Part shown: in pieces, positions 12,515-48,212 of the stretch
How the letters are laid out: each line of letters starts with the position of its first letter
Position numbering within the stretch: the first letter of the stretch is position 1
Translations under genes and position numbers: made by a program
Notes under the pieces: model-generated
What the model was told of the DNA's origin: nothing
Databases searched by the model: none
What the model saw: only the letters and a program-made list of their open reading frames with translations
Assembly: GCA_964606385.1 (NCBI GenBank)
Contig: CAZSFZ010000003.1
Location: 111,615 to 175,614, forward strand
From: an uncultured bacterium
GTDB lineage: Bacteria; Omnitrophota; Omnitrophia; Omnitrophales; Aquincolibacteriaceae
Direction of reading: 5' to 3'
DNA: 64,000 nucleotides

Positions 12515-12525
12515 GCTCTTTCGAT

Positions 12526-13620: not shown

Positions 13621-13640
13621 GGCTCACTATGCTCGCGTTG

Positions 13641-13777
13641 AACGGGAAACGGTTAACGAAAAATAATCTTTATAATTTTAAAGCTCTTTTTATTTTTGAA
13701 ACGAGGCACTATAGCAGAAAATTTCTCCCCGGGAAATGACAAACGGGTAGGGCGTTCCCCGTTCCACGTTCCCCTGG
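13641..13777. repeat. GGGGAAC heptamer inverted-repeat element flanking an AT-rich promoter region
   Basis: GAACGGGAAACGGttaacg (13641-13659) and GGCGTTCCCCGTTCCACGTTCCCC (13751-13777) bracket about 90 nt of AT-rich sequence upstream of ychF. Confidence 0.65.
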
Positions 13778-25700: not shown

Positions 25701-28700
25701 AAAAAACGGATGTCCGTCAGGATCAAGGTCGCCAGAACTTCCGTTGAAATATTCCGGAGCTTTGCCTGGGCCTGAAGCCATTCCCAAAATGTGCCGGAAG
25801 CTTGCGAAAAAAAGATCCTTGTTAAGGGTTCCGTGGCCTGAACAGGATTCCAGAAAATGTCGGGGAGGAACGGCTCCGGCGCGTTGAACCAGGGAGACGG
25901 ATCCTCACCCGTGATCCCGATCCCGCCGGACCAATGGATCATTTTCCGCGCGTCGCTCGCGAAATTCTTGTCCGAAGGATCCGTCATCGATTCCAGGAAA
26001 AGCCTGCGCCAGTAAAGCGCCTTTTCCCCCAAAACTTCGCGCAGGAGGCTTCTCGCTCCCGAAGACGTTCTTTCAAGGAGTTCCCGTGTCCGGACGATCG
26101 AGGCCTCGAGGGCTTTTTGCCGGGCCTCGGTCTTCCACGGCTCATCAGGAATGTCCGAAGCCCGCACTTCCGAACGGCTCGCAGGATCAAGAGGTTCTCC
26201 CCGCCGGCGCCGTTTTTCACTGTCCAGGTGCCAGGCGTGCGCAAAGGCCTTCACCGCTTTCATATCAAGCCGTCCTTCTTCCGCATGCCTGACAAATTCG
26301 CCCACCGCCTTGTGAGCCGTGATCCCGTTCCGGTAAACACGTTCTACTGTCATCGCATCGAATGAATCCGCAACGGCAATGATCCTTGCTTCCACCGAGA
26401 TTTCTTTTCCGATCAGCCCGCGCGGATACCCCCTGCCGTCCATGCGTTCGTGATGAGAGAGAACGGTCTCGCGGACTTTTTCTAGGCCGGGGATCGAGGA
26501 GAGGAGATCCGCGCCTTTTCGGGAGTGTGTCTTCATGATGATCCATTCCGGGTCTGAAAGAGGATTGGGATTTTTAAGGATCTCTTCGGGGATCTCGAGC
26601 TTCCCGATATCATGCAGGAGAGCCGCTTGGGCCAATGTCAGTGAATGAGGCAGCCTCAATTCTACGGCTGTCATGACCGCAAGACGCATGACCCTCTCCA
26701 TATGACTTAAAATCTCTTCGTCCTTTTCCCGGACTTTTTCCAGAAGCTCCCGGGCCTGGGGAGGCAAAGACTCCACAACCTCCTGAACCGTCCATTGTTT
26801 ATGGGAATCGTCCGTTTCATCGGTGGCTGGCGCCAGAATATCCCTAAGAAGGGTTATTTGATAATCGTCCCGGAAATGATACCCAAGCTTAACAGCCCCG
26901 GATCGTTCCCTCTTTTCCAGATACCGATCATAGAAATCCCTGGATGCCTCACTAAAGGCTTGCCAGAAAACTTCCCGGACCCCCGCCTGGAACATCTGAC
27001 TCAAAAAGACATCCATGAGCCATGTGCCGCGTCCGCGAAGACCGTCTTTCACGGTCAGGATCCTCACAAGTTCCACTTTCTCACGGTCATCGCTCAAACG
27101 GCCATAAATACCTCCCGCGATCCTTCCTTGCGCGTCGATAAAGATCCAGGCTGGGTACCGGGTCAGATTCCTTTCCCACTTATCGGAAGAACCGCTTCGC
27201 AAAACGCCGTCCTGCTGTTTGACATGAAATGCTTCTGCCTCTAATTCACCCAGAACAGCGGCGACCTCCCGGAGTTGTCGCGCATCCAACTCCAAGGCTT
27301 TAACATTGACAATTTTCCCCAAGAGCGGGTCCGAAACCACGACCGCCGCTTCAGGAATTTCCATCTGCAACTGAAAAACGGATTTCGTTGCCGCTACTGA
27401 GATAAGCCTGTCAAGGGTGGCTACCAGAGACTGATATTGGGTGAAAACTTCACGGTGCCCGCCGAGGCCGTATTTTCCGATCACGACCCGACGCAGATTA
27501 TCCTTTTGAAATTGCGCTTCCGCGGCTACTTGCTCGGGCTCTTCGGCGGCCATCGGGATAAGAGAATCCAGTTTTTTCTCAAGCACTCCGAGAAGCCCTT
27601 TCACGATCGCGATCTTCTGCGCTTCGGAAAGATCTTTTTTGTCTTCGTCGCCTTCTGTCCGGACCTCGGAGCGGATCCGGAGATGTTCCAAAAATCTGCC
27701 TGTTAAAAGATCTTGATCCAGGGGCTGAAGTTTTTTAACCCAAGCCCGCTTGAGCGTCAGGCCTCCCTCCCAAGGGATCTTCGTTGAAAGGTCCGTAAAG
27801 ACATAGCCGAAATCCGGCATGTTCTGATCATAGACAATGCGGGCCAAGTCGGGATCCAGGGCTTTCATGTAGAGCCGTTTTTTCATGCGCTCCGCCGCGG
27901 GGCTGCCCCCCATCCACTTGAAAAGCGAGGGGATCATCGGCCGCATCAAAAAGGTCGCGAAGATCTGAACCGCGCGGAAAAACCGGGTCAGGGCATCGCT
28001 CTTCCCATAATGCTGAAGCCTCGCGATGACTCCCGGAAAGGCCCGTTCCGGCCAGCGTTCGAGGATGGTTTCGCTCCCAGGGCTGACGATCTCGGTGACG
28101 CCCGGAAGGGTCCGGGCATACGCTTCCAGGACAAGGCGCATGACTTTCCGCCAATCCTTGTACCTCGTCCGCGTGGTCTCATCTTTTTTGAGGAACGGAT
28201 AGATATCGCTTTGGACTTCCGCCACGACAAGCTGGTGGCCGCGCACATAACAGCGGGCAAAAGCAAGCGATCCCGGCACATGAATGTCCGTGAATTGCCC
28301 TTCCAGAACTTCTGAGGTATGAATGTGTTCCTTTTCCTCATCCGCCGGAAAGAACCCGATCACCTTCGGGTCTTTGGCTGTACCGTACATCCGCCGCGTT
28401 GCTTCGAAAGGAACTTCGCGCGCCTCTCCGCTGAAAAGATCCATTTTGGCTTTTCCGATCTTGAAGCGTTCCTGACCTTGCGGGATATTGATCGTCGCGT
28501 AAAAATCAACATTTCTCGTTTCGGAACGGTTAAAAAGTTTTTCCTGGTTGGCTAAATAAACCACGAGAGGAAATTCTTTGGAATCACGATAACGAAAAGT
28601 GGTCACATCCCATGTCAGGGAACCGCTCAACCGGTCCTCGAAAGTTTTCTTACGATCTTTCTTGGAGGGGTTGGGGTCTCTGAAGATCTTTCCTTTCGCG

Positions 28701-31700
28701 GCGCCTACGTACCGGAGCTGTTCTCCTTCGATTCCTGCGATGACAAAATGCATCACCTCCTGATCGCTGGGGTACATGGGGGGGGTCCGGACCACGACCA
28801 CATCCCCTGTTTTCAGGCCATCCTGTGGTATTTTATCGTATACCTCAAACTCCCCGGGGTTTTGAACCGCATATTTCATCCATTCAAAAGAGCCCTTTTC
28901 GGTAAATTCAGTAACAGAAGATTGTTCTGAAAGCGTTTTGCCAGCCTCTCCGAGGCGGGTGAGACGGACGGCTCGTTGAGGAAATTTGAAGCGAATGGTG
29001 GTTTTGTGACCGTCAAGACCCGGAGAAAGCGCTTCCATGGTACCGTCGTGGGCTTGCGTAACGATTTGGGACATAAGAACACCTATGCCGCCCCGGCTTA
29101 AGATAAAACGTCCGGATCCTTCTCGCGCGGGGCTTTTGGATACGATCTTGAAATATTCCCCGTAGAGGTCCTCGGGAACGAGAGAGGCAATGCCGATGCC
29201 GTCATCGGAAACTTCAAGATAAACATGATCTGCGTCTTGCAAAACCTTAAGATGAACCAGCCCCTCCCGGTCACCGCGGCCGTAAGCTGCCAGTCCGTTC
29301 TTGAGCGCTTCCGCGAGAAGCTCATGAGGTTCCCAGCTTTTCAAATCATGGACAATCCTCCCCCAAGTCCATTCCGGATGCCTTCCAAGCACTTCTTGAG
29401 CTCCTAGGCCGATGATATGATCGATCGGTTCAGTTGCCCATTTCAACCCCACGCGGTCCATGAAGTCCGTTAACATTTCACCTATCAATCCTTCGAGGTC
29501 CGCCTGGGTGTCCTGGAGGGTGGGCGCCGGCCTCATCGAACGGCTTTCGAAAACAACCTCTCTTGTCTCAGATCGTTTTGAGTGATGTTTTTCGCGGCTG
29601 ACCGAAGCATCCTCATAAAAAACCTCTTCGACATCCGCGATCTGCCGATGATCCTTATCCAGAATCGCCCTGAAATCCCCCCCGTTCCCGTGCACGATCC
29701 GTTCGATCTTGGCATAGATCCAAGATGCGGTTTCTGCGGCGGGCCATGCGATGCCGCTGGTATAAAAATCGTTTTCCAAGAAAAATTTTCGAAAGATCTC
29801 CTCGCCACTCCTCCGTCGGACTTCGGAACGAATTTCCTTCGCGGCGCTCATGGGCAATTGGGGCAAAAAGGGTTCGAGTTCGGCCTTCGCCGACCGGATC
29901 ACTTCTTCCTGCTGCCCAGGACGGGTGTCGAAATACCGGCTAAGACCACTTTTATAAACTTTGAACGCTTCCGGGGAAGCCGAAGCTGTGCGCAGGCCAT
30001 GGAGCATTTCCTCTTCAGTAAGCTCTTTTTCAGATCCCGGGTCCTGAATGGCCGTTTTGAAGACCGCTTCCATGAACCCCATATTGCCCGGGAAGATATC
30101 CGGACGTACCTTTGAATACGGTTTGATGTAAATCGCCGCGGGCCGGTTTTTAAAAGGCGCCCGCATGAGCAAGAGATGGGGCGTATCCAGCAACTTCAGG
30201 AAATCCGTGATCAGAGCCGCGTACTTTGCGACACCGCTCGACGAGGGCCCCTTCACGACAAACCACGCTCCTTCATCCGTTGAAAGTTCCGCAACAAAGG
30301 GCCCTCCTTCCTGGGCCGGAATGAATATGTCCTCTTCCTTGACCAGCTGATCTTCGATCCATGTGCTGTCCGAAACAAAACCGTGGGCATGTTGGGGCTT
30401 ATCTCCCATTCCGACAGCCGTCCCTCCATGGAACGCAAGCGCGACATTTCCGACCCCGAATCGTTCAAGCGCCTTCATCATGATTAAAAGGGACCGGCGG
30501 TCGACTGTTTGGTTGTGAAGCTCTCGATGATTAATGGCAAGGACGAAGTGATACGGCAAAAACGGCATATAACTGCGCAGGATGTGGACGTGAAGCCCAT
30601 CAATATTAAAATCGAGAAGCTTCTGGTGGGGATACTTGGCGGCAATTTCCTTCCAAGGCATGCCGGCGGCAGAGCGATCGACCGGTTTTGTAACAAAACC
30701 CGGAGCATTTTTGTAGAACGCTATCCACGCAACAACTTTGCGGAGAAATCCCCGGGGGCCGGGGATGGCCTCCGTTCTGACATCTTTGAGGTAGGAGAAC
30801 CCCGCGCCCCCCGCCCCCGTATAGGCTTCGGTTGCTTCGTAGCGTTTTTCAAACTCACGGAATACCGCGCTTGTAAAATGTTTGTCTTTTTCCTCTTTAC
30901 CGGCCCCGGGCAATTCGGAATGCGCTTGAGCCTGGGAAGTCTCGTCGCGCTGCGCTTTTCGAAGGGACCTGATGATCGAGGCACGTTCATCGCCGGAGAG
31001 CTCCGGGATTTTTTTATAAACATCAATAATTCGATCGAAAAGGCTTTTCGAAACCGTCTCGGTCTCAAGAGCTTCTTTGATTTCACCCATGATCGCGTCA
31101 GGAACATAGGAAAAGCCCGCGAATTCTGGAAATCCGGGACGCTCGACCGGAAAGAGGGCTGAGGGAGTACGCGATCTCGGGAAGATATAGAAGGTCCCTC
31201 CGCTCAGAATCACATTGTGCGGGATATCGGCGCTTCGGAGAACCCCGATATATTTTAATGCTTCTGCGCCCGCGGTTTGAGGGTCTTTCCCCGAAAAAAC
31301 CACGGCTCGGGCGCGATAATCGGTCAATTGCTCCACACGCACATCCAAGGGGGTCACCGCTATTTCTGTCCTGGCGGTTTGGTCCAGCCGCGAAGCTCCT
31401 CTCGAAACCGGCACAAGCATTACTGAAAAATAAAGTTGCCTGAATCGGGCGCCGGCAATCATGCTGTCAAATCCTATATAGACCCGGTACTGACCGCCTT
31501 CAGAAAGAGCGCGAACTATGGCCGCCATATATTCAAAAGCTTTTTGATTCATGACTTGAGGCAGGTTCGCGGACATATCAGCCACCACATAAAAATGATT
31601 AGGCCTGGACCCTCGTCCGGCTGTTAGAATGCGAACGCCGTTCGAAATCCCCTCGATCGAAACAGATTTCTCAAAAAGGTCGCTCCTGTCACCGTCAAGC

Positions 31701-34231
31701 AAGCCTTCGTAACCGGGTACGGGTCGTTCCCGGTCCGATGAGTGAGTCGCGGACCATTGCGCCATAAAAAGGTCCTTGAGCCCCGGGTCATCCATATCAC
31801 TCATGAGATAGGTCGGCTCCATTTCTTCAAACAACGCGGGCGGCAGCAGTAAGCCTTCGGATTTTTTCGAGAGTTTTTTCGAGCCTTGCACGCCACGCGC
31901 CCGTTCCAAAATCTTCACGGAAAGCGGTGCTTCAGTGAATGGTTCTTCCGTTTTCTTCCGCTCCATGCCCTGGGGCTTAAGCTGTCTGACCTCCGAACGG
32001 GCTTTTTCGCTTTTTACACTTTCAAAACGAATGTAATCCCGGATCGCCTGGTCAGTCCGGGGCCAGACCTCCAGCATCTTGAAGATCCCGCGCCTGAACT
32101 TTTCATAATCATTGCCGGGCGCAGCCAAACCGGAATTAAAAGCAGCATTCAGTAAATAGGGAAGCTGTATATCGTAAGGAACGGGGTCAGCTTGTGTTCC
32201 CTGATATTTGTCGAGAGTAGTCTTGTAAGCTGTAAAATCCTCTTTAAGGATCAACCGGAACATTTCCGAGTTTCTTGAAAACGTTTGCCGGATCTCTTCG
32301 AGCGCTTTGTCGAGATCTTGTAAATTCGCCTCTTTTTCCCCGAATTCCCAAAAAAGCATTTCGAGGATCCCGGAGAGGATCTGTTCCTTATTCGCAAAAA
32401 GATGGGTGCTGAAAACGCCCAGAGCCGTTTGGGTATCCAATACCTGCCCGTTCATGATATAAACCGTCTTTTTCAGGCGAGCATGCTTCCCAATCCACAT
32501 TTTAAGGCTTGAAAAATACTTTATAGCGGAAGAAGCCCGCTTAAGAAGATCGGGTTCATCCCAATCCGGCTCAGACGGCCACACCTCTTCCCTCATTTCC
32601 GCGCGTTGAGAGGAACCTTCCAATGCGCGATCCATTTTAAGCACAAAATCCTGGGACGGCTCGCCGCGCAAAGGTCCGGCGGCTTCAAGAAGACGGGATA
32701 ACGCGGGGGCGTAATCCATGGTCACAGCGCGTTGCGGGCAGGTGCTTTCACGGGCCACGCTCTCCGGACCATGCGCCACGCCCGCCTCACCGCTTTTCGT
32801 GTCCCGTGTCCCGTGTCCCACAGCCCAATCTTTTTCAAAATCATGTTTTCCCCCGCTCATGAGCATGCGGTAATAATCCTGATGCCGTTTGCTGGGGGCG
32901 CCGATCGCGGGAGAAAGAATGACGTAGCCGATCCCTTTTTCTTTCAGGATCTTTTTAATGGCCTCTTTGTGGAAACCGCCGAACACAAGCGCCGCGGCCT
33001 TGGCTTCCGGGTCCTGGAGAAAACCGTCGAAGATCTTCCCGATCGAAAGGTCGCGCTTCATCGCGAGCTCATAGAACCGGGTAGCGTCGGTGATGAGCCC
33101 CTCCCAGGAACGGAACATCACGATCGAACGGCCCGTTTCCTGAGCAAGAAACCGGGCCACGTCCTCGGTCTTGAGGCCTTCGAGCGATCCTTTGAGCTCG
33201 GTGAATTCCTCGTGGCTCAACTCGATCGCATTCATTTTTTCAAGCAGCAAAACGCTTTGGTAATAACCGTAAGTTTTTCTGTCCCGCTCGGAAGAGAGGC
33301 CGGACTCAACGATCTCCCCTTCCAGCTGTTCGATCTCTTTCAGGAGTGCCATGAGATCGATCTGCTGGATCTTTTTCTCATCACCGGAAAGCAACTTTGA
33401 AATTTCGGGGAATGATGAGCGGGGAACGTCCAGCGCTTTCGTTTCCCGTTCCACGTTTCCCGTTCCACGGGTTTTCCATGTTCGCTGGAGATATTCCACG
33501 AGCGGCATCTGCCCCTGCTGGTACCGCTCCTTCAACTTCAACCATTCCTTCATTTCCTTGGGAAAATTTTTATCGATGAGTTTTTGGAGTTCCTTGCGGA
33601 TGAGCCAGATATCGCGGGTCACCTCCCCTCGGTTTTTTGCGGCTTGTTCGTAAGCGCGGATGTTCTCGAGGTGCAGCGCGATCGAATCAGCGCCCACAAG
33701 CTGAAAGTCGCTTTGCGGAGAACGGGGAACGGGGAACGCTGAGCGATCCGTTAACCGTTCACCGTTAGCCGTTTCCCGGGAGGACGGTTCTGCCGACCGA
33801 TTAATGTGCGCATACTCCGCCCCGCCGACACGGAGCTTGTCCATCAGGTAGTAAGAGAGCTTTTCCTTGAGCGCAGGGTCGTCGATCGCGCCAAAGATCT
33901 TGTCCGTCGGGACGGGGCCTTCGTAGCCTTCTTCATAAACGGTCTTGATCCCGTATTCTTTGACCAGGTAGCGGACCATGCCGGCGATATTTTCTTGCGC
34001 TTCGAGGGAATCATGCGCGTCCTGGATATAGACAAGTGTTTTACCCGACTTCCCGGCCGAGGTCTCCATCAGGCTGCCGAGTTTCTCGGGCAATTGGAAG
34101 GACGAGCGAAGTTCGGCTCCCGGCATCACGGGCGACAATGATTCGAGAGGCATAGCGATCGCGTTCGTCGTCACAAAACAAACGACGACTACCAAGCTGA
34201 CGATCCGTTTAAAGCCAGAACCTCTTATCAT
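13781..34231 (-). CDS. giant multidomain protein, 6,816 aa. Signal peptide plus internal TM segments and many fused enzyme modules separated by a recurring RSE[VI]R motif
   Basis: Uninterrupted 20,451-nt ORF. N-terminal signal peptide (MIRGSGFKRIVSLVVVVCFVTTNAIAMP). GHKL ATPase motifs (EVSDDGIGI, GGIGV) near nt 29190. GNAT-like motif. HD-GYP (HHERMDGRGYP) near nt 26420-26465. HExxH (VVIHEGTHL) near nt 24590. FHA-like (YRSTNGT) near nt 23300. SAM MTase motifs (VLDLMSGK; LDVGTGSGIFAALA near nt 20705-20765). Nudix box GGHVQTRQGYRDTVKHEIVEELGL at nt 19817-19888. GAGAGGT RBS before the ATG at 34231. Confidence 0.8.
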   Translation of the reverse strand: MIRGSGFKRIVSLVVVVCFVTTNAIAMPLESLSPVMPGAELRSSFQLPEKLGSLMETSAGKSGKTLVYIQDAHDSLEAQENIAGMVRYLVKEYGIKTVYEEGYEGPVPTDKIFGAIDDPALKEKLSYYLMDKLRVGGAEYAHINRSAEPSSRETANGERLTDRSAFPVPRSPQSDFQLVGADSIALHLENIRAYEQAAKNRGEVTRDIWLIRKELQKLIDKNFPKEMKEWLKLKERYQQGQMPLVEYLQRTWKTRGTGNVERETKALDVPRSSFPEISKLLSGDEKKIQQIDLMALLKEIEQLEGEIVESGLSSERDRKTYGYYQSVLLLEKMNAIELSHEEFTELKGSLEGLKTEDVARFLAQETGRSIVMFRSWEGLITDATRFYELAMKRDLSIGKIFDGFLQDPEAKAAALVFGGFHKEAIKKILKEKGIGYVILSPAIGAPSKRHQDYYRMLMSGGKHDFEKDWAVGHGTRDTKSGEAGVAHGPESVARESTCPQRAVTMDYAPALSRLLEAAGPLRGEPSQDFVLKMDRALEGSSQRAEMREEVWPSEPDWDEPDLLKRASSAIKYFSSLKMWIGKHARLKKTVYIMNGQVLDTQTALGVFSTHLFANKEQILSGILEMLFWEFGEKEANLQDLDKALEEIRQTFSRNSEMFRLILKEDFTAYKTTLDKYQGTQADPVPYDIQLPYLLNAAFNSGLAAPGNDYEKFRRGIFKMLEVWPRTDQAIRDYIRFESVKSEKARSEVRQLKPQGMERKKTEEPFTEAPLSVKILERARGVQGSKKLSKKSEGLLLPPALFEEMEPTYLMSDMDDPGLKDLFMAQWSATHSSDRERPVPGYEGLLDGDRSDLFEKSVSIEGISNGVRILTAGRGSRPNHFYVVADMSANLPQVMNQKAFEYMAAIVRALSEGGQYRVYIGFDSMIAGARFRQLYFSVMLVPVSRGASRLDQTARTEIAVTPLDVRVEQLTDYRARAVVFSGKDPQTAGAEALKYIGVLRSADIPHNVILSGGTFYIFPRSRTPSALFPVERPGFPEFAGFSYVPDAIMGEIKEALETETVSKSLFDRIIDVYKKIPELSGDERASIIRSLRKAQRDETSQAQAHSELPGAGKEEKDKHFTSAVFREFEKRYEATEAYTGAGGAGFSYLKDVRTEAIPGPRGFLRKVVAWIAFYKNAPGFVTKPVDRSAAGMPWKEIAAKYPHQKLLDFNIDGLHVHILRSYMPFLPYHFVLAINHRELHNQTVDRRSLLIMMKALERFGVGNVALAFHGGTAVGMGDKPQHAHGFVSDSTWIEDQLVKEEDIFIPAQEGGPFVAELSTDEGAWFVVKGPSSSGVAKYAALITDFLKLLDTPHLLLMRAPFKNRPAAIYIKPYSKVRPDIFPGNMGFMEAVFKTAIQDPGSEKELTEEEMLHGLRTASASPEAFKVYKSGLSRYFDTRPGQQEEVIRSAKAELEPFLPQLPMSAAKEIRSEVRRRSGEEIFRKFFLENDFYTSGIAWPAAETASWIYAKIERIVHGNGGDFRAILDKDHRQIADVEEVFYEDASVSREKHHSKRSETREVVFESRSMRPAPTLQDTQADLEGLIGEMLTDFMDRVGLKWATEPIDHIIGLGAQEVLGRHPEWTWGRIVHDLKSWEPHELLAEALKNGLAAYGRGDREGLVHLKVLQDADHVYLEVSDDGIGIASLVPEDLYGEYFKIVSKSPAREGSGRFILSRGGIGVLMSQIVTQAHDGTMEALSPGLDGHKTTIRFKFPQRAVRLTRLGEAGKTLSEQSSVTEFTEKGSFEWMKYAVQNPGEFEVYDKIPQDGLKTGDVVVVRTPPMYPSDQEVMHFVIAGIEGEQLRYVGAAKGKIFRDPNPSKKDRKKTFEDRLSGSLTWDVTTFRYRDSKEFPLVVYLANQEKLFNRSETRNVDFYATINIPQGQERFKIGKAKMDLFSGEAREVPFEATRRMYGTAKDPKVIGFFPADEEKEHIHTSEVLEGQFTDIHVPGSLAFARCYVRGHQLVVAEVQSDIYPFLKKDETTRTRYKDWRKVMRLVLEAYARTLPGVTEIVSPGSETILERWPERAFPGVIARLQHYGKSDALTRFFRAVQIFATFLMRPMIPSLFKWMGGSPAAERMKKRLYMKALDPDLARIVYDQNMPDFGYVFTDLSTKIPWEGGLTLKRAWVKKLQPLDQDLLTGRFLEHLRIRSEVRTEGDEDKKDLSEAQKIAIVKGLLGVLEKKLDSLIPMAAEEPEQVAAEAQFQKDNLRRVVIGKYGLGGHREVFTQYQSLVATLDRLISVAATKSVFQLQMEIPEAAVVVSDPLLGKIVNVKALELDARQLREVAAVLGELEAEAFHVKQQDGVLRSGSSDKWERNLTRYPAWIFIDAQGRIAGGIYGRLSDDREKVELVRILTVKDGLRGRGTWLMDVFLSQMFQAGVREVFWQAFSEASRDFYDRYLEKRERSGAVKLGYHFRDDYQITLLRDILAPATDETDDSHKQWTVQEVVESLPPQARELLEKVREKDEEILSHMERVMRLAVMTAVELRLPHSLTLAQAALLHDIGKLEIPEEILKNPNPLSDPEWIIMKTHSRKGADLLSSIPGLEKVRETVLSHHERMDGRGYPRGLIGKEISVEARIIAVADSFDAMTVERVYRNGITAHKAVGEFVRHAEEGRLDMKAVKAFAHAWHLDSEKRRRRGEPLDPASRSEVRASDIPDEPWKTEARQKALEASIVRTRELLERTSSGARSLLREVLGEKALYWRRLFLESMTDPSDKNFASDARKMIHWSGGIGITGEDPSPWFNAPEPFLPDIFWNPVQATEPLTRIFFSQASGTFWEWLQAQAKLRNISTEVLATLILTDIRFLQFLTVCYFAKKYDRFFPGMPVTIAAKTERAEATAKHLQSSLQKSPDLFQLFRSLRTQLPIEKEKNNAAEEVFYQHGRAITLGAELIKKAFSEGVYRSGALELASTTVGTAIDFPNVHENEIDAFHLEEVLRWVKANLDLNVLFTLPPAALAAKKPNVPDTDVSINGRSEIRTLLAAETKFTELLEVLKSVVSDKAKRKAKANELVAALRKGRIHSYEDVREVLGPDVSIAKLKTLFEISGLQSRAPPATSRKGFVLKASLAVSLAVTIAIAAFFVFQMTSSDTDRIARRFNRIAATVMDPAARESIQDLIKEFREHAKIDETRIDPLSIHPFIRQQANKAGELSGIQVNKDFALEMPQMIVKYVVIHEGTHLRNAHLRYATNQGFEDFMKRLNALRPAKGTVDPNEILKDPEILRAVFRTYASQIEDEKLAYQAEDEAMMADIRSAGSHEAFVKKMFEGLGDGNEDRRRNGIVVGYMEGVGQRWDAEKGTPSEDGTQAYVLKVLLNTPYLEQGVGHLHYLRNVYLQTVYAMTQGTADAGMIQLTGDLDRPFRVTDYKRLAAWTYEQAQKLGVHPQTETRVDHHEKRSEVRSAGIPARFTPLALKNAPKMQTIAWEGKTYNFVAISVMLQSQDQKNLAFLLVEHMNPELRKDFLDMLSPELKKTVLNYLHSPASEPTMILQDRQLRGEDFTAMFFGRVILGVGEHVETSPVQFEIEPLADGRIAFRIYSRGDADTYEVDFNKTYMVARDHVPEDKIQAAELFTVDSEFVTSGRHFSFRVFRDDEGNLWITIEDYRSTNGTVLSAEIYPATVAYEGRDQDMVRYSELLKLILASLGDLLKADDKKPVKDDPIHHYKHAVDETCRLYQESAEFGELEKLRKEVIQEVLFANVVGQAVDRTNYALEALEKLLQEDRISIWLPVLEVAVSYLPAGKMNPKFFRLLQVISSEKIRQAPTKLKRDVMRILSGVAGNPTEFSNQPPLEHEMTKTIRLDIIPGQDMTPKNRSEVRTDFVSKWRDAQRRKMLESPDLRLLNYLVHRTGFSPEQKKAYIRLWELMSLSVPLFAISKTVLSTLSTALVATHPLFAFVPVSIWFFMSPFLRLVFLIAPFTWIYKLRVNTLFWANFFPAGGAFIAVPSQLFELVRDEYRRYPGMSFKQLRDLHHQVIAHVSAMPAEGTHSFSREALLARSSELTFNLLEWRSAQHASGTKVKNLFPDDISELLSGSGPRPRSEMREGSQSDFRDVVNETPYLEWAPGQMIEQKLATLLPEGAKVLDLMSGKFSYVPAASQASEVIGVGLNDKEMALNKKLTSYRVQDVNEKPAFPEEWKGRFDAVVMTSGAAYAEDLPSLFRAAAETLKEGGTLFVAYNPDYYSPEATAVWKGMKADEKAKAVTDALEAAKSFSVPRHERKSYVGRFDLSQDMDMIFAVKNIRSEIRTDVKLQNPDYVFLFGHIGLNFDRSVAGVRGGFDIIEGRIEPLKMRSFEKWLLDLNRHSSESEVMMPSRRIGAEIFLAQKNAEETENQFFERVLIGESSKIRASLIENSDGQSLAIESPSFVLIVPVMSEAEVRRNQKNPNDAWDPWAYPDEAQAAAQMQKAGELFPGKPVFMNGAPIFYTEDGFMNVRGRLMSKNRVSDKFAALLGGMELKTGFKTLDVGTGSGIFAALAVQKGSGQVTATDTDDLSLELAKWNVRRLGLQDKVRVAYGDPFTGEAVGVDEKFDLILASLPLQHGAAAAKQLTLRFLRELPAHLDPNGKALVFLYQGTMSRYMRRRTDLTKIQDPDCEKVFQASLAPLDFNARGVSSIAFYHQADEDHIYTIFEIARSKTVSEPIRPETKGVQPKLRQQLEKIKEDPSAGLDSAKIQDILTAIENGSLKLKGEDVDIIKSENGIETVIGAIDRNIAHRYGLMHRVPTTFIMTPEGKFLLQRRAHNIAEPMRLSLFGGHVQTRQGYRDTVKHEIVEELGLPEDWKIDDSKLQTIRTEGAFASPEWDGKNRERRSHYVYFASIEEIQKIRATGKLLETKLAELGEAGFKQWLEAQQKAKNGLGEVWSIHEYAYDELMSLGHDQLSSDLLAPLLHDPANQDVRDVLEQAANTNRSEVRDAERFANWEGLKAKAAGSEVSHLLDPAYILHDWMILSVVNPSLKDYGLIYGAAGVDLSNALLSTNMTRGLFISDYFGWFKDALTGAIPMDPRQILDPGTRARWLASELADRYRYNKEVFGYSVGEWLRGPLERLIAMTVELDALGVKNFQITSYEQSLGLDFEWQHPLGKTLSSRTVLFVDADITRSYAYRELLGSGFNGYYQRAGEEVPLDYAQNPGFILELQDALPQGGYFITDDHAYYHVPGTPRELAFTDRGSSFPGGLPQLSIPHYKELTQAILKLRGGGILSDAPAHRYGWDVRIRKNEKDEAKRSEIRTSKFQKVEPQIEAFDPDKIKVVLSVSGADETDPTKQWFKADGVSRLFRDRVHGPLYVDREGKPYGSHDPRVEAFKKTVSQFIETYEVTHSDEKVELVLPNGNLGINDWFVGVADGKVYSSARDPKAGRVYDMLVTGEDGSLSVMSLQLMKPDGTRGIFDERGDPVTGIRYAVYGQRIVKNGKDNLKNLHEQFDDLRHIFRLPFFRMVRDGVEQNIELGFSDDLGELYRDPELIKLALMGQPIVLSLEPLLKKGLTVEAIRQKYLEWEYKDFDARRDKEKEKLDEGEFRIINGREIEIRLIAAYYPHSFIGLAEDPRGKKQLLVGNTLAGDSKFIGAYLPEVIQQFIARGAKDVFLWANGKDLAGTRNSRGTGLEAILLTKKRSEARNKDIVPEEVMAKVTDVWEKVDQLNLRNKPVPLDVKSVQTGKEGFVFIGDSTEFEKAVVAWAGLIDGTEEGYQWMGKATENLRKRGYGKNYSFIRNARMAANYLGENVDWYAHQQGALVVDYDDATGTGYVAAIDRGEGFPINTKGELDIALVHGGFLAQKSEGGGDGIAMGRVIKEGDVTIISHGQVAEIRKGETAARKVIPRPYDGKRAQDIAKFKGSAVIVRFTAERSEMREAGSSNDEAAKTDLEAAQRQFKWWSKKIPAWTEGEKAKIPQVLKALHEAGFSLRGGTVQLEISEAGARVVFGVLGTPRTPSSVYNKALQVYKDRGGWDAALREAGLDPESIKREPGFIELRNMKNGQERKWPAAEPRLESKGRSEARDIDFMKTAQELKALLDARFNAATNREMITQYLKIYSYTTRPVVSSLKGLLDHGLPEPLAEFFVSRNIWDKTDQSNVLEALNGVYAAQQTPPDSRNRAEMRHEDLELAGRWMKGSKEAAKELLEKGYWVSGFSELNRGTRLSDLLEETGFSTTPAPVYFRMLGEEKVSTDEELMGQVLNEFQINRVHAGNQAQSVIVARSIEDRGRKGIEILSLDNGEGIPSVLWAVEPGNSMTGSTHRGKGLPYILSAVRSEPHSFAEIHTVLPSGSSEAYRFLPHVFEPQPIPCVLSEHGTLVRIVRFAVGGRSEVRVDGNSDAYQSSADFLTRYTVQQDGLSYSVWNVIEKETPSAAYALKKILEARRWMDESGKKDRPLVIWQNMSLGQFFPYFSEAVKTELGVLELSGDPSRWNTQAAQWQPGKTRFILIKQKTASSFPGENREYENYEEEAWDPSVDMWGAKEAARIAKDLKAPLVMVDHSRKEFSNAQELWADQARREGAAPIRIRAGADADETAVRNAIESDGALLLLNANAHPEKQGSLFDDSKIFSEEGRNLQVVVGGQRTSFYDAFTEAYAKAAIEAVRKSEARELELTGKTPKDKSDRSEVRSSGTGPKEYEPVQSSGLNEKRSVRTAIENLRGKFTVMTDLADVAYFTDAQLQEFETMAILQPNVKFVFYGNQSQPFSAKGAVDRLTRLQRQLGAGRIVITEVAPEDMPVGKDEKIIRISKRSVPRSALNKKIFDFRYIAEETGLVPMALLYADQHEKPSEKGVMDLSMASAMLRVALQEFQNSIVFARAA

Positions 34232-34542: not shown

Positions 34543-36198
34543 ATGATCCAAACTAAAGTAAAAATAGCGGTTCTGGGCATCTTGTTCATTCTCTTTTCGA
34601 TAGGTTTCCAGATCCAGGCTCCGGCCGAGTGGCAAAAACCTGCGCAACCCCCCGCCGCGGGAGGCCCTCTCACCTGCCTCGTCCCGCATCCGCTGGATCC
34701 CGCGAAATTCCTGACAGCATCGGAACACAGTATTTTTGAAAACAGCGCTGAAAAAACATGGCGGCCGCTGTGGTCCCAGGGCGACTCGAACTCGGCGATC
34801 CGGCACCTTTATGTCTTCCCGATCCTGCCATCCGTTATTTTTGCGATCACGGACCGGGCGGTTTTTATGGGAGATCTGAAAAACGGGTCCTGGCGCCAGG
34901 TTTATCAAGCCAACGATAGAGACCCCCTCGCTTTCACCGTTCACCCGGAAAACCCCAATCGCTGGTTCCTGGGAACCCGGAAAGGTCTTTGGGAGTCGCA
35001 TGACGCCGGAAAAACCTGGTCCCCTTCTGCGGCATTCCGAAGGGCAGGTCCTGTTTCACTTTTGATCTTTGACCGTGAGCGGCTTTTTCTTGCGGACGAA
35101 GGAACGCTTTATGTGATCCTGCCCGGAAACTCCGCGAGGCCCGTCCTGGATCTTTCCGGTCCGGAACCGGAGATTCCTGTCGCCGATACTTTGGGTCCCG
35201 AAACGGTCGCGGAGCCCGCGGACGGCAGCGTCAGGATCCACGACCTGATCTCTTCAAAGCGGGAGCCTCACGAGTGGTTCCTCGCGACAAGCCGGGGTCC
35301 TTTCCGAAGCGGTGATGGCGGGTACCGCTGGAACCCCATGCCGCAAAGCGGACTTCAAAGCCCTGTCATCCATCAACTCGCCTATTCCGGGAGGACAGGC
35401 ACTCTTTATGCCGCGACACCGCGAGGGATCTACGCTTATGACGCGAAGGCAAGGGCATGGACGGGACTGTTCCGGGGGCTGGCCAAGGACCGCGCGCAGG
35501 GTCTCGCGGTACTCAATGAAGAACGGCTAATCGCGATCACCGAGGAAGGATTCGTACAATACCCCCTTCAACCCCCCATTCCCGAAACAACGCCTTCCCT
35601 CGCGATCTACCATCCTTCCGCTGCAACGCTTTCTCTTTTGCGGGAACTTCTCAAAAGGGAGCCCTCGGCCCGGGAGGTCCACAAACATGTGATCCGGTAC
35701 GCCAACGTCGGGAACGGAAAGATCAAGCGCTGGCACGCCGAGTCGCGCCTCGCGGGACTCATGCCTTCCTTTTCTTTCGGAAAAAATCTTGATCGTAACG
35801 CTTCGATCACGACCTACAGCGGCAAATACATCACGGGCCCCGAGGACGTCAGTAAAGGCTGGGACGCGGACGTCAGTTGGGATCTTGGAGATACGATCTA
35901 CAGCTCGGACCAGACTTCCATCGACTCGCGGGAAAAACTTATGGTCGAGCTTCGTAACGACCTGCTTTCCGAAGCGACCCGTATTTTTTACGAACGCCGG
36001 CGCCTTCAGATCGGCAGGGTCTTTACGCCTCCCGCCTCCGAGCAGGAACACCTGGAAAGCCTCCTGCGCATGGACGAGCTCACCGCGCTTCTGGATAGCA
36101 TGACGGACGGTTTCTTCTCGAAAAAGATTGCGGGAATCTACCGGGAAAAGCCGGAGTTTGACAAGTTGTGGGTCTATCGACCTTCGGGGAACGGGTAA
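34543..36198 (+). CDS. secreted BNR/Asp-box repeat (beta-propeller) protein
   Basis: Track ORF 34480..36198. The preferred start is the ATG at 34543 after a TAGGAGG RBS, giving signal peptide MIQTKVKIAVLGILFILFSIGFQ. Asp-box motifs SHDAGKTW and SGDGGYRW. Confidence 0.55.
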   Translation: MIQTKVKIAVLGILFILFSIGFQIQAPAEWQKPAQPPAAGGPLTCLVPHPLDPAKFLTASEHSIFENSAEKTWRPLWSQGDSNSAIRHLYVFPILPSVIFAITDRAVFMGDLKNGSWRQVYQANDRDPLAFTVHPENPNRWFLGTRKGLWESHDAGKTWSPSAAFRRAGPVSLLIFDRERLFLADEGTLYVILPGNSARPVLDLSGPEPEIPVADTLGPETVAEPADGSVRIHDLISSKREPHEWFLATSRGPFRSGDGGYRWNPMPQSGLQSPVIHQLAYSGRTGTLYAATPRGIYAYDAKARAWTGLFRGLAKDRAQGLAVLNEERLIAITEEGFVQYPLQPPIPETTPSLAIYHPSAATLSLLRELLKREPSAREVHKHVIRYANVGNGKIKRWHAESRLAGLMPSFSFGKNLDRNASITTYSGKYITGPEDVSKGWDADVSWDLGDTIYSSDQTSIDSREKLMVELRNDLLSEATRIFYERRRLQIGRVFTPPASEQEHLESLLRMDELTALLDSMTDGFFSKKIAGIYREKPEFDKLWVYRPSGNG

Positions 36199-36215
36199 AG
36201 GGAAACGGGGAACGC
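36183..36215. repeat. GGGGAAC heptamer array (forward arm) 5' of the four-helix-bundle gene
   Basis: GGGGAACGGGtaaaGGGAAACGGGGAACGcc overlapping the last codons of the BNR gene. Confidence 0.6.
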
Positions 36216-36792: not shown

Positions 36793-37884
36793 TCAACCGT
36801 TCCCCGTTCCCCGTTCCCCGCGCTTGGACATTCTGTCCAAGCGGAGCTGCCCACACGCCGCTTCCGTCTCCCGCCCCATGGTCTTGCGGAACGTGGAACG
36901 AACACCCAACCGCTCCAGGGTTTCGCGGAATTTTGTCATACGTTCCTGGGAAGGGGTCTTCCAGTCGATCTCCCGGATCGGATTGTAGGGAATGAGGTTG
37001 ATCTTGGCCTGCAGAGGCTTGGCGATCTTGGCGACCGCCCTCGCGTCTTCTTCGGAATCATTCACGCCGTCGACTAAAGTGTATTCGAACGTAATGTCTC
37101 GCTTCAGATCCTGATGGATCTTTGCGAGCATTTTGATGAGTTCCTTGAGCGGGTATTTCCGGTTATAGGGGATCAGCCGGCTCCGGACCGCGTCGTCCGG
37201 AGAATGAAGCGAGACGGACAGCCGAATACGTCCTTCGGTCTGTTTCACGAACTCATAGATCTTTTCCGGGACTCCCGAGGTCGAAACCGTGATCTTGCGC
37301 CCCCCCATCTCAAAACCCCAGGACGCCGTAAGGACCTCGAGGGCTTTCATGACCTCGTCAAAATTATCGAGAGGTTCCCCCATCCCCATAAAAACCACGT
37401 TGGTGATCTTGCGTCCGGTCTCCCTCGCGATCCACGCGACCTGCTCGATGATCTCTCCGGCGGTCAGGTTCCGGAGCAGGCCTGTTTTCCCGCTCGCGCA
37501 AAAAGGGCAGCGGACCGCACAACCCAGTTGGGTCGAAACACAAACGGTCTCCCGGTCCCTTTGGGAGATCAGAACGCTTTCCAGAAAATGGCCGTCGGTC
37601 GTTTTAAAGAGGAACTTGGCCGTCCCTTCGCCCGCGGCGGCACGACCCTCTTCCATCGAGAGCGCGGTCAGTCCGAAGCGAGCAGCCAGAAGGTCGCGGA
37701 GTTCTTTGGGAAGGGTCTTCATTTCCTCCCATGAGAGGATATGCTTTTTATAAAGCCATTCGAGGATCTGCTTGGCGCGGAATTTCGGAAGGCCGAGCGA
37801 GAGAACGAGAGCTTCGACCTCCGGAGGGGTGGAGCCATAGAGGGTTTTCATTCTGTTTGCCGCCGGACTCAAAACGCCGCACAC
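36793..37884 (-). CDS. rlmN: 23S rRNA m2A2503 / tRNA m2A37 radical-SAM methyltransferase
   Basis: 363 aa. QLGCAVRCPFCASG radical-SAM motif in an RlmN/Cfr context (FRAKQILEWLYKK, GMGEPLDN). The track start is GTG at 37884. The alternative is the ATG at 37851. Confidence 0.85.
   Translation of the reverse strand: MCGVLSPAANRMKTLYGSTPPEVEALVLSLGLPKFRAKQILEWLYKKHILSWEEMKTLPKELRDLLAARFGLTALSMEEGRAAAGEGTAKFLFKTTDGHFLESVLISQRDRETVCVSTQLGCAVRCPFCASGKTGLLRNLTAGEIIEQVAWIARETGRKITNVVFMGMGEPLDNFDEVMKALEVLTASWGFEMGGRKITVSTSGVPEKIYEFVKQTEGRIRLSVSLHSPDDAVRSRLIPYNRKYPLKELIKMLAKIHQDLKRDITFEYTLVDGVNDSEEDARAVAKIAKPLQAKINLIPYNPIREIDWKTPSQERMTKFRETLERLGVRSTFRKTMGRETEAACGQLRLDRMSKRGERGTGNG
36797..36824. repeat. 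GGGGAAC heptamer array (inverted arm) 3' of the four-helix-bundle gene
   Basis: CCGTTCCCCGTTCCCCGTTCCCCG, reverse complement of the array at 36183. It overlaps the rlmN stop region. Confidence 0.6.
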
Positions 37885-38875: not shown

Positions 38876-39037
38876 CTTAAGCTCCGGTTCATGGGGAACG
38901 GGGTTATCTTACCAATCCTCCCTTGGGTTGGCGATATAAAAATCAACACCGGGCGGTCAACGGCCGGAGGCCTTCGAAATCGGTTCCTCCGAAAAGCTCT
39001 CTGCCTTATAATGAAGCATCACACGGCGGGAGGGCAT

Positions 39038-40563: not shown

Positions 40564-40644
40564 ATCAAAAATCTATTGGTAGGGTGTGCTGTCCTGGCCA
40601 CCTTTATTTTAAAAACAAGGCCAGGGCTGCCACCTCTCCATTAA

Positions 40645-40715
40645 CACCCGGGAAACGTTCCTCGGGGAACGGCTAACATTCAAACTCTTACGTTCTGCGC
40701 CACCCGTTTCCCGTT
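40645..40715. repeat. GGGGAAC heptamer inverted-repeat element immediately 3' of tadA
   Basis: cccGGGAAACGTTCCTCGGGGAACGGctaac, then a spacer, then caCCCGTTTCCCGTTCCacacg. Confidence 0.6.
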
Positions 40716-40724
40716 CCACACGCC

Positions 40725-45574: not shown

Positions 45575-45585
45575 GTGCCCCACAA

Positions 45586-47738: not shown

Positions 47739-47747
47739 ATCGGCCTC

Positions 47748-48185: not shown

Positions 48186-48212
48186 GGTATAACCTCCTTC
48201 GTTAACACCCTC

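What the first reader, a model, noticed from the sequence alone, without database searches (positions are those of the whole stretch)
33410..33775. Two copies of the dispersed GGGGAAC inverted-repeat element lie inside the 5' coding region of the giant gene and are translated in frame
At 33718-33775 the sequence is GAACGGGGAACGGGGAACG ctgagcgatc CGTTAACCGTTCACCGTTAGCCGTTTCCC, encoding SRETANGERLTDRSAFPVPRS on the minus strand. At 33410-33475 it is GGGGAACG tccagcgctttc GTTTCCCGTTCCACGTTTCCCGTTCCACGGG, encoding GTGNVERETKALDVPRSSFP. The same hairpin-forming element is otherwise found in intergenic DNA at gene ends. Its presence in frame within the first 250 codons of the giant gene is unusual. 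It may be an in-frame MITE/REP insertion tolerated in a linker. Alternatively it may be an RNA hairpin that paused or attenuates translation of the giant mRNA, or a recombination hotspot used to shuffle modules.
Basis: seen in the sequence. Interest (0 to 1): 0.6.

Follow-up and report, generated by a model that had tools for sequence, protein, structure and literature searches.

The report
In-frame heptamer-armed palindromic repeats in giant gene
Two small hairpin-shaped repeats built from 7-base units sit in frame inside the start of a giant Omnitrophota gene, and related genes carry many such repeats at the same few protein loops, so this domain is a hotspot for selfish palindromic DNA that is translated into protein.

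Summary
At 33710-33796 and 33410-33478, inside the 6816-codon ORF 13781..34231 (-), lie two inverted pairs of tandem GGGGAAC-like heptamers. The same repeat sits at six or seven gene ends in the window.

Both are insertions. Distant orthologues have 2 residues at site 1 where the window has 29. An AlphaFold model has pLDDT below 50 exactly at both sites.

In 72 orthologous metagenome loci, period-7 arrays are about 20 times denser in this N-terminal domain than in the flanks. No other period from 6 to 13 is enriched. The arrays fall into about six loops.

The units differ between genomes (GGGACTC, GGGTATA, GGCGTAC and others), and where a partner arm is detectable both arms carry the same unit. 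Near-identical whole elements, spacer included, occur at different loops, in different genomes and in both orientations.

They therefore behave like small mobile palindromes, comparable to Rickettsia palindromic elements. Their arms belong to the known class of G-rich heptanucleotide repeats (STRR-like).

The mRNA hairpins are weak, with no terminator signal and no frameshifted or length-variant alleles. The attenuator, phase-variation and recombination ideas are unsupported.

The transposition mechanism and the reason for the domain-specific hotspot remain unknown.

The parts
13781..34231 (-). Giant ORF of 6816 codons. It has an N-terminal signal/TM segment and a conserved ~470-aa N-terminal domain, followed by HATPase_c, GNAT-like, HD, methyltransferase and NUDIX domains.
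   Evidence: homologues named Candidatus Omnitrophica
32822..34231 (-). Conserved N-terminal domain (codons 1-470), the host of the in-frame elements. It has no Pfam match. The AF2 model has pLDDT 81 and pTM 0.70. Fold matches to erythromycin-esterase-like proteins are only weak.
33710..33796 (-). Site 1 insertion (codons 146-174, SAEPSSRETANGERLTDRSAFPVPRSPQS). It is a GGGGAAC-family palindrome with arms at 33716-33738 and 33748-33777.
   Evidence: distant orthologues have 2 aa here; pLDDT below 50 at residues 148-171
33410..33478 (-). Site 2 insertion (codons 252-274, WKTRGTGNVERETKALDVPRSSF). It is a GGGGAAC-family palindrome with arms at 33411-33428 and 33440-33469.
   Evidence: aligns in register with L121, L122 and L125; pLDDT below 50 at residues 258-265
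32750..32822 (-). Third in-frame element (codons ~470-494, VGHGTRDTKSGEAGVAHGPESVAR), with unit GGGACAC x3 plus a degenerate partner arm. It is 88-89% identical over 65-69 nt to an element at a different loop in L128.
12425..12515 (.). Intergenic GGGGAAC palindrome between the ychF stop and the start of the next gene. It has 4 + 4 units and a 31-nt spacer, and its G arm is a canonical G4 motif.
13640..13775 (.). Pair of arrays flanking the 96-nt AT-rich spacer between the giant-gene stop and the ychF start.
36185..36214 (+). G-rich array overlapping the stop codon of ORF 34543-36198. The unit variant GGGTAAA supplies the TAA.
36797..36820 (-). Perfect (GGGGAAC)3 array (read on the minus strand) overlapping the last codons of the RlmN-like gene 36793..37884. 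Together with 36185-36214 it brackets the PF05635 gene.
40640..40722 (.). Degenerate GGGGAAC palindrome between tRNA-Ser and the stop of the deaminase gene.
38893..38903 (+). Solitary 1.5-unit GGGGAAC remnant 18 nt upstream of the corA start.

Best explanation
The two sites are translated, in-frame copies of a small palindromic repeat. Each arm is about four tandem G-rich heptamers. The family consensus is (GGGGAAC)4-G-AAAA-C-(GTTCCCC)4, about 60 nt, with the G-rich arm always 5'.

The same family sits at gene ends elsewhere in the window. The arms belong to the known class of dispersed G-rich heptanucleotide repeats (STRR-like convergent pairs).

In this Omnitrophota lineage several such heptamer-armed families behave as small non-autonomous mobile or gene-converting elements. 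They land in, persist in and replace one another at about six disordered surface loops of the conserved N-terminal domain of giant proteins.

They survive inside a gene for three reasons:
- GGGGAAC and most other units seen carry no stop codon in any frame or orientation.
- Only insertions whose length is a multiple of 3 are retained.
- The loops tolerate 20-35 extra residues.

They are passengers, not regulators of the giant mRNA.

Shown here:
- identity with the dispersed family;
- the insertion status;
- the loop location;
- discrete copies at non-orthologous sites;
- nucleotide-level (not protein-level) conservation.

Inferred:
- mobility as the process;
- selective neutrality.

The enzyme responsible is unknown.
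For: 1. The in-gene and intergenic copies share the same heptamers and the same G-arm-first architecture.

2. Site 1 is 29 aa in the window against 2 aa in most orthologues, and site 2 lies in a length-variable loop. The AF2 model has pLDDT below 50 only at residues 1-4, 23-43, 148-171 and 258-265.

3. In 72 non-redundant orthologous loci there are 46 period-7 arrays in 114 kb of N-domain coding DNA, against 12 in 596 kb elsewhere. No other period from 6 to 13 is enriched (period 4 is about 3-fold; the single period-14 array is a doubled heptamer unit). Periods 6, 9 and 12 give 0 arrays in the domain. The arrays map to loops at aa 34-41, 58-64, 145-174, 255-276, 406 and 468-489.

4. Whole elements, spacer included, recur at different sites:
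- window 32751-32819 matches L128 site 3 at 88-89% over 65-69 nt, while the flanking domains are 49% identical as protein;
- the GGGTATA family is at L125 site 1 and site 3 (90%, identical spacer), and in L161, L196 and L182;
- the GGGACTC family, with conserved spacer AAACGAGGAACCAAAACG, is in L177, in L186 (reverse orientation, 92%) and at L126 sites 1 and 2;
- the GGGGAAC family is at sites 1, 2, 3 and B in six genomes.

5. Conservation is flat across codon positions. Third positions are invariant at 52% in the site-2 element against 16% in the rest of the domain (p about 1e-4), while amino-acid invariance is lower (39% against 58%). This replicates at site 1 in L121/L122/L126, 54% against 26%.

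6. The same flanks at site B hold different element families.

7. GGGGAAC and 15 other of 20 units seen are stop-free in all six frames. A stop-containing unit, GGGTATA, carries the variant GGGTACA exactly where TAG would be read.

8. The mRNA hairpins are weak and there is no terminator signature.
Against: - No transposase or RAYT-type gene was found in 28 window ORFs scanned. No target-site duplication was seen in the five-copy alignment of the GGGTATA family. The mechanism of movement is therefore unknown.
- Tolerance alone does not explain a roughly 20-fold concentration in this one domain. The next ~2000 codons of the same giant ORFs are almost free of arrays.
- Codon-independent conservation and arm co-variation would also be expected of a selected DNA or RNA structure.
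- No presence/absence or length polymorphism was seen. Another SRA assembly is 100% identical across both sites, and five near-identical contig pairs show no array differences.
- Most insert-bearing sequences fall in one clade of the domain tree. Part of the site sharing is therefore common descent rather than repeated insertion.
- In other phyla, GGGGAAC pairs have unrelated spacers, which fits in-place array growth better than copy-and-paste.
Confidence: 0.6

Rival explanations
1. The palindromes are selected nucleic-acid modules in the 5' part of giant genes. They could act as DNA cruciform or G-quadruplex structures, as binding sites for a protein, or as structures in an antisense RNA. On this reading they are maintained at fixed loops because they do something for replication, transcription or expression of the giant gene.
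For: - Enrichment of about 20-fold that is specific to period 7.
- Third-codon-position conservation of 52% against 16% and 54% against 26%.
- Both arms change together between orthologues, so palindromy is preserved.
- A strict G-arm-first orientation: 30 of 33 in the orthologues and 41 against 0 across phyla.
- Folds are systematically stronger on the antisense strand.
- A PF05635 four-helix-bundle gene, bracketed by the same arrays, is a conserved neighbour in the window's clade.
Against: - About 50 of 72 orthologous loci have no arrays at all, and a paralogue on the same contig as a fully loaded one (L142 against L186) has none. The elements are therefore dispensable for the domain and the gene.
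- Unit sequences are unrelated between genomes, which argues against a sequence-specific binding protein.
- The two sites lack a canonical G4 motif.
- Decayed copies exist, for example in L127.
- Concerted evolution (slippage plus arm-to-arm copying, or conversion from other copies) can mimic selection.
Confidence: 0.2
2. The heptamer tracts are contingency repeats. Gain or loss of one 7-nt unit shifts the reading frame, switching the giant protein on and off. Paired changes in the two arms would re-frame only the loop, diversifying an exposed surface.
For: - A non-triplet repeat period lies in the 5' part of a gene for a large secreted or surface protein.
- Within-array homogenisation differs between orthologues (GTGGAAC x4 in L121, GGGAAAC x3 in L125, an alternating pattern in the window), which implies past unit turnover.
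- The arrays are stop-free in all frames.
- The ORF of homologue P0015 ends at loop site 3, and the next ORF starts within 36 nt.
- SSRs are known to be enriched near N-termini (Rehm et al. 2015 discussion).
Against: - The tracts have only 3-4 units, which is short for efficient slippage.
- None of 80 orthologous loci is frameshifted within the domain.
- There are no unit-number differences in five near-identical contig pairs or in an independent SRA assembly.
- The reading phase of the site-2 arms is the same in all four close orthologues.
Confidence: 0.1
3. The elements are not mobile. Each array pair arose in place by polymerase slippage and fold-back copying at a permissive loop, and has since drifted.
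For: - Cross-phylum GGGGAAC pairs have unrelated spacers.
- Orthologous positions keep an array while the unit changes, both in the gene and at the rlmN/PF05635 junction. Rehm et al. report the same for Xanthomonas.
Against: - Near-identical whole elements, with specific unit-variant order and the same spacer, occur at non-orthologous loops, in other genomes and in reverse orientation.
- Unrelated units at the same site would require many coordinated changes in both arms.
Confidence: 0.08
4. The pattern is a chance or codon-usage artefact of a G-rich coding region.
For: None beyond the fact that isolated GGGGAAC heptamers occur at the expected rate.
Against: - 18 copies against 3.95 expected, with 0 of 100 shuffles reaching 18.
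- Arrays are confined to about ten loci.
- The enrichment is specific to period 7.
- The insertion status is shown against orthologues.
Confidence: 0.01

Closest known systems
Dispersed G-rich heptanucleotide repeats (GGGAATC in Xanthomonas; GGGGA(C/T)T, the STRR type, in Nostoc/Anabaena): Rehm et al. 2015, PMC4692102
   Same: - Tandem 7-nt G-rich units with a mode of four units per array.
- Located at gene ends.
- Frequent 'convergent' inverted pairs.
- Loci persist between relatives while the arrays change.

All of these are seen here.
   Different: - There, 89-93% of repeats are intergenic and the repeats are under-represented within ORFs.
- Here the densest location is the interior of a folded domain, read in frame at about six loops.
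- Many unit families co-occur.
- Whole palindromes recur as discrete copies.
Rickettsia palindromic elements (RPEs; Ogata et al. 2000, as reviewed in PMC10969869)
   Same: - Small palindromic repeats inserted in frame into protein-coding genes.
- The added peptide segments are compatible with the protein fold.
- Here the segments lie in pLDDT<50 loops.
   Different: - RPEs are ~150 bp with a conserved consensus and are spread over many unrelated genes.
- These are 60-90 nt with arms made of tandem heptamers.
- They are concentrated in one domain family, and families replace one another at the same loop.
REP/REPIN elements mobilised by RAYT (IS200/IS605-type) transposases (PMC3116915 listed; properties from general knowledge)
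   Same: - Short imperfect palindromes, often in inverted pairs at gene ends.
- Genome-specific families.
- No target-site duplication.
   Different: - REPs are extragenic and are not tandem-heptamer arrays.
- No RAYT was found in the window.
- The rest of the genome was not available.
MITEs
   Same: Small, non-autonomous, with inverted termini, able to create in-frame fusions.
   Different: - No target-site duplication and no partner transposase identified.
- The spacer is not conserved across the wider GGGGAAC family.
TAACTGA heptamer direct repeats of Beggiatoaceae, cyanobacteria and Bacteroidetes (MacGregor 2015, PMC4679880)
   Same: Genome-wide heptamer arrays of unclear origin shared across phyla. 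Their rare intragenic copies are translated.
   Different: - Those are direct repeats just upstream of start codons.
- They contain stop codons in one orientation.
- Within proteins they sit at the periphery, not in internal loops of a domain.

Membership tests
G-rich heptanucleotide SSR / STRR-like class (Rehm et al. 2015) | Tandem 7-nt units with a G-tract | tested here: met
   TRF finds period-7 arrays with unit CGGGGAA at 12425, 33716, 36185 and 36797.
G-rich heptanucleotide SSR / STRR-like class (Rehm et al. 2015) | Dispersed, mainly at gene ends | tested here: met
   Six or seven gene-end copies in 64 kb.
G-rich heptanucleotide SSR / STRR-like class (Rehm et al. 2015) | Preference for about four units, and convergent (G-arm-first) inverted pairs | tested here: met
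   The window has 3-4 units per arm and all pairs are G-first. Across phyla the mode is 4 units, with 41 G-first pairs against 0 C-first. In the orthologues 30 of 33 are G-first.
G-rich heptanucleotide SSR / STRR-like class (Rehm et al. 2015) | Four intact G-tracts able to form a G-quadruplex | tested here: not met
   For the two sites of the finding there is no G3+ x4 motif. Such motifs occur only at 12427, 36186 and 32803(-). Actual G4 folding cannot be tested with these tools.
Rickettsia-palindromic-element-like in-frame selfish DNA | A repeat family inserted in frame in coding DNA, absent from orthologues, at positions compatible with the fold | tested here: met
Rickettsia-palindromic-element-like in-frame selfish DNA | Sequence homology to RPE families, and insertion in many unrelated genes | tested here: not met
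   The arms here are heptamer arrays, not the ~150-bp conserved RPE unit described in the review; direct alignment to RPE sequences was not run. In-frame copies were found only in the N-terminal region of giant ORFs.
MITE | Terminal inverted repeats plus a target-site duplication and a conserved internal sequence | tested here: not met
   Inverted termini are present. However, no TSD appears in the five-copy alignment, and spacers are unrelated in the wider family.
REP/REPIN with RAYT | A cognate Y1 (RAYT) transposase gene flanked by the repeats | tested here: inconclusive
   No transposase family was found in 28 window ORFs. Only 64 kb of the genome was available.
Phase-variable SSR contingency locus | Unit-number polymorphism giving on and off reading frames | tested here: not met
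   No frameshifted orthologues. Identical arrays in near-identical contigs and in an independent SRA assembly. Read-level data were not available.
Intrinsic terminator / attenuator hairpin | A stable mRNA-strand hairpin followed by a U-run | tested here: not met
   z -1.7 and -0.7 on the mRNA strand. No terminator-like site on the minus strand.

The most novel reading that the evidence does not exclude
Heptamer-armed palindromes are not mere passengers. On this reading they are products of an active, site-renewing process. One example would be repeated breakage of the palindrome followed by templated re-synthesis of G-rich repeats on both 3' ends, which would explain the strict G-arm-first orientation and the wholesale swapping of units. 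This process would be harnessed to vary, or to switch, the exposed loops of the N-terminal domain that heads Omnitrophota giant proteins. That would make it a new kind of localised diversification system operating on protein loops.
Probability: 0.12. Interest if true: 0.85.

Novelty: new variant of a known kind. Interest (0 to 1): 0.62.

Why it matters
Heptanucleotide repeat arrays have been known in cyanobacteria and xanthomonads for decades, yet neither their origin nor their function has been explained. Here the same kind of repeat is seen as discrete, family-structured palindromes. They move between, and replace each other at, a handful of loops in one conserved protein domain, and they are read through by the ribosome.

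This gives a compact natural test bed for two questions: how such repeats arise and spread, and how much foreign, non-triplet repetitive DNA a folded protein can absorb. The test bed consists of one domain, six loops, and many genomes and paralogues both with and without elements.

There is also a practical consequence for annotation and comparison of Omnitrophota giant proteins. Blocks of 20-35 residues in their N-terminal domain are repeat-encoded and should not be treated as homologous protein sequence.

Tried and rejected
- Rfam scan of the window: only two tRNAs, no RNA family at the sites.
- RAYT/REP idea for the small ORF bracketed by arrays (36241-36783): it is a PF05635 four-helix-bundle protein, not a transposase. 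Its adjacency to GGGGAAC arrays is not general, with only 2 of 120 cross-phylum loci showing it. In the window's clade it is simply a conserved syntenic neighbour.
- DNA of the most similar insert-bearing homologue, P0015, could not be fetched.
- Polymorphism: near-identical contig pairs and three Logan contigs were all identical at the arrays.
- Frameshift alleles: none in 80 loci.
- Stop-free units as a selected property: 16 of 20 is not significantly above the 72% expected for GG-starting heptamers. It is a permissive property, not evidence of selection.
- Literature searches for GGGGAAC, and for heptamers in two Omnitrophota giant-gene preprints, found nothing on this.
- My first inverted-partner test used contaminated controls, because random windows hit other arrays. 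I replaced it with an up-versus-down comparison.
The breadth of (GGGGAAC)3 across phyla therefore cannot be compared with that of other heptamers.

Full report
**Observation.** The window holds one giant ORF, 13781..34231 on the minus strand, of 6816 codons. Its product has a hydrophobic N-terminus, a ~470-residue region with no Pfam match, and then HATPase_c, GNAT-like, HD, several methyltransferase domains and a NUDIX domain. The N-terminal region finds only uncharacterised proteins, several of them named Candidatus Omnitrophica/Omnitrophota.

They translate in frame as ...SSRETANGERLTDRSAFPVPRSPQ... (codons 146-174, window 33710-33796) and ...RGTGNVERETKALDVPRSSFPE... (codons 252-274, window 33410-33478). 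TRF and the repeat finder independently report period-7 arrays, and at site 1 an inverted pair of arms.

GGGGAACG occurs 18 times against 3.95 expected, with no shuffle reaching 18. Of the 29 GGGGAAC copies, 17 lie in about ten clustered arrays. The 12 isolated copies match the chance expectation of 12.8.

Copies outside the giant gene sit at gene boundaries:
- between ychF and the next gene (12425-12515);
- between the giant gene's stop and ychF (13640-13775);
- across the stop codon of ORF 34543-36198 (36185-36214);
- across the last codons of an RlmN-like gene (36797-36820);
- upstream of corA (38893);
- between a deaminase gene and tRNA-Ser (40640-40722).

A third in-frame element with another unit, (GGGACAC)3, lies at 32750-32822.

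**Are they insertions?** In an alignment with 16 database homologues, site 1 follows the invariant HINR motif. Most homologues pass from HINR to the next conserved block with one or two residues, while the window has 29. Site 2 lies in a loop of variable length.

A scan of metagenome contigs gave 80 orthologous loci at 35-65% identity. In an NJ ordering of 72 non-redundant domains, the basal state at site 1 is 2 residues. Inserts of 21-53 residues occur mainly in one clade that includes the window, plus a few scattered sequences.

An AlphaFold2 model of the domain (pLDDT 81, pTM 0.70) is confident everywhere except residues 1-4, 23-43, 148-171 and 258-265. These are the leader and the two insert sites, each lying between well-predicted helices or strands.

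**A recurrent property of this domain.** I scanned the 72 loci for tandem arrays of each period.
- Period 7 gave 46 arrays in 114 kb of N-domain coding DNA (0.405 per kb) against 12 in 596 kb of flanks (0.020 per kb).
- Periods 6, 9 and 12 gave none in the domain.
- No other period from 6 to 13 was enriched. Period 4 was about 3-fold denser in the domain (5 arrays against 8), and the single period-14 array is a doubled heptamer unit.

Most flanks downstream are the continuation of the same giant ORF, because the ORFs run off the locus after more than 2400 codons. Several of the 12 'outside' arrays are still within the first ~850 codons of that ORF.

Mapped to window protein coordinates, the arrays fall into six loops: aa 34-41, 58-64, 145-174 (site 1), 255-276 (site 2), 406 and 468-489. 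The units are diverse: GGGACTC, GGCGTAC, GGGGAAC, GGGTATA, GGTCTGT, GGAGACT, GGCGGAT, GGGACAC and others.

At sites 1 and 2, most close relatives (7 of 8 examined; L127 is degenerate) carry a palindrome of their own unit in both arms. Of 62 arrays, 33 have a detectable inverted partner, and in 30 of these the G-rich arm is 5'.

**They behave as discrete elements.**
- The third window element (32751-32819) is 88-89% identical over 65-69 nt, spacer included, to an element in L128. That element sits in a different loop, and the two domains are only 49% identical as protein.
- A GGGTATA family of ~87 nt has a fixed order of unit variants (GGGGATA-GGGTACA-GGGTATA-GGGTATA). It is found at site 1 and site 3 of the same gene in L125, at 90% identity with an identical 21-nt spacer, and also in L161, L196 and L182.
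- A GGGACTC family with the conserved spacer AAACGAGGAACCAAAACG is found in L177, in L186 in reverse orientation (92%), and at both sites of L126.
- The GGGGAAC family has the consensus (GGGGAAC)4-G-AAAA-C-(GTTCCCC)4. It occupies site 2 (window, L122, L125), site 3 (L126, L182), site B (L167) and site 1 (window).
- At site B the same flanking codons (...EIYR / HDRMVV...) enclose different families in different genomes.

This is the behaviour of small mobile or gene-converting palindromes, not of linkers evolving as protein.

**Nucleotide-level conservation.** The site-2 element aligns in register in the window, L121, L122 and L125. The invariant columns follow the heptamer core AACG regardless of codon phase.

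| Measure | Site-2 element | Rest of domain |
|---|---|---|
| Invariant by codon position 1 / 2 / 3 | 0.61 / 0.61 / 0.52 | 0.63 / 0.75 / 0.16 |
| Amino-acid invariance | 39% | 58% |

The figures are, and Fisher p is about 1e-4. The same pattern holds at site 1 among L121, L122 and L126, with third positions invariant at 54% against 26%. Either selection on a nucleic-acid structure or concerted evolution (slippage within arms, arm-to-arm copying, conversion from other copies) can produce this. The data do not separate the two.

**Translation.** All inserts keep the frame and none contains a stop. GGGGAAC and 15 other of the 20 units seen are stop-free in all six frames. This is not more than expected for GG-starting heptamers, so it is a permissive property only. 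Where a unit does contain a stop (GGGTATA, read as GTA TAG), every copy carries GGGTACA at that position. This argues that the elements are read by ribosomes rather than removed or bypassed.

**Regulatory and other readings.**
- On the mRNA strand the two sites fold no better than dinucleotide shuffles (z -1.7 and -0.7). The opposite strand folds better (z -2.2 and -3.7), because the arm mismatches are A-C in the mRNA and G-U in the antisense.
- Across orthologues, the antisense fold is the more stable in 12 of 15 cases.
- No terminator-like site lies on the mRNA strand, and no Rfam family matches.
- The two sites lack a canonical G-quadruplex motif, unlike two of the intergenic copies.
- For phase variation, the tracts have only 3-4 units. 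None of 80 loci is frameshifted. Five near-identical contig pairs have identical arrays. A contig from another SRA run is 100% identical across both sites.
- Nothing speaks directly to a role in module shuffling.

**Comparison with what is known.** The arms match the class described by Rehm et al. 2015 (PMC4692102). That class comprises dispersed G-rich heptamers (GGGAATC in Xanthomonas, GGGGA(C/T)T in Nostoc) that are mostly intergenic and close to ORF ends. They have a mode of four units, 70-75 'convergent' inverted pairs per genome, and loci that persist between species while the arrays change. Their function is unknown.

The hits came from Gemmatimonadota, Rhodanobacteraceae, cyanobacteria, Chloroflexota, Kiritimatiellia, actinomycetes and others. 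In these loci the modal array has four units, and 41 adjacent opposite-strand pairs are all G-arm-first. Their spacers are unrelated.

In behaviour the closest analogue is the Rickettsia palindromic element, which inserts in frame into many genes. The differences here are:
- the heptamer construction of the arms;
- the small size;
- the plurality of families;
- the concentration in one domain;
- the replacement of one family by another at the same loop.

Two Omnitrophota giant-gene preprints in the held library do not mention heptamers, tandem repeats or hairpins.

**Verdict.** What is there is a new variant of a known kind of repeat: translated, heptamer-armed palindromic elements with a pronounced hotspot in the N-terminal domain of Omnitrophota giant proteins.

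I put 0.6 on the passenger/selfish-element explanation, 0.2 on a selected nucleic-acid function, and 0.1 on phase variation or loop diversification.

Three things remain unexplained:
- the mechanism of movement;
- the strict G-arm-first orientation;
- the reason for the domain-specific hotspot.

Noticed in passing
window 36241-36783 (+), with arrays at 36185-36214, 36279-36292 and 36797-36820: A PF05635 (23S rRNA intervening-sequence / four-helix-bundle, Avd-like) gene is bracketed by a G-rich and a C-rich GGGGAAC array. The same gene is a conserved neighbour about 2 kb upstream of the giant gene in L121, L122, L125, L126 and L128. Among 120 cross-phylum GGGGAAC loci, only 4 carry such a gene, 2 of them adjacent to an array.
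   Followed up: partly
window 36196-36198 and 36793-36820: The stop codon of ORF 34543-36198 is supplied by a unit variant (GGGTAAA) inside a heptamer array. The last ~8 codons of the RlmN-like gene 36793..37884 are encoded by a perfect (GGGGAAC)3 array.
   Followed up: no
L121 ~3380-3405, L122 ~3790-3815, L125 3389-3417, window 36797-36820: The orthologous junction between the RlmN-like gene and the PF05635 gene carries a heptamer array in each genome, but with a different unit (GGCGTAC-like, GGGACTC-like, GCGCAAC, GGGGAAC). Unit turnover at a fixed locus therefore also happens outside coding loops.
   Followed up: partly
L001-L120 (genome contigs): (GGGGAAC)n arrays occur in many phyla (Gemmatimonadota, Rhodanobacteraceae/Dyella, cyanobacteria, Chloroflexota, Kiritimatiellia, Streptomyces and others). 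The modal array has four units, and 41 inverted pairs are all G-arm-first, none C-arm-first. No control heptamer could be scanned.
   Followed up: partly
window, 10 sites (for example 34155-34162): The palindromic octamer GCGATCGC, the sequence of the cyanobacterial HIP1 repeat (my recollection, not checked here), occurs 10 times against 2.9 expected. No shuffle reached 10.
   Followed up: no
window 43257-55840 (-): There is a run of eight consecutive radical-SAM genes, some with SPASM or B12-binding domains and one fused to a family-2 glycosyltransferase. ABC-2 transporter and GT4 genes follow.
   Followed up: no
protein P0009, aligned to window residues ~255-275 (site 2): This homologue has a different repeat-like insert (…CEGTQCPKQSPGSEIASALPGLPPRND…) at the same loop. 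Its peptide resembles translations of another dispersed hairpin repeat that I recall from uncultivated-bacteria genomes (not checked here). The loop may therefore also accept non-heptamer repeats.
   Followed up: no
protein P0015 (ENA contigs, no DNA held): The ORF of the N-domain ends at loop site 3. A 3839-residue ORF starts 36 nt later in one contig, and overlaps by 4 nt in a second contig. This may be a natural frameshift or split at an element.
   Followed up: partly
L142 and L186 (same contig Ga0182027_10001512): Two paralogous N-domains lie on one contig. One has no inserts at any loop, and the other has inserts of about 30 residues at all four measured loops.
   Followed up: partly
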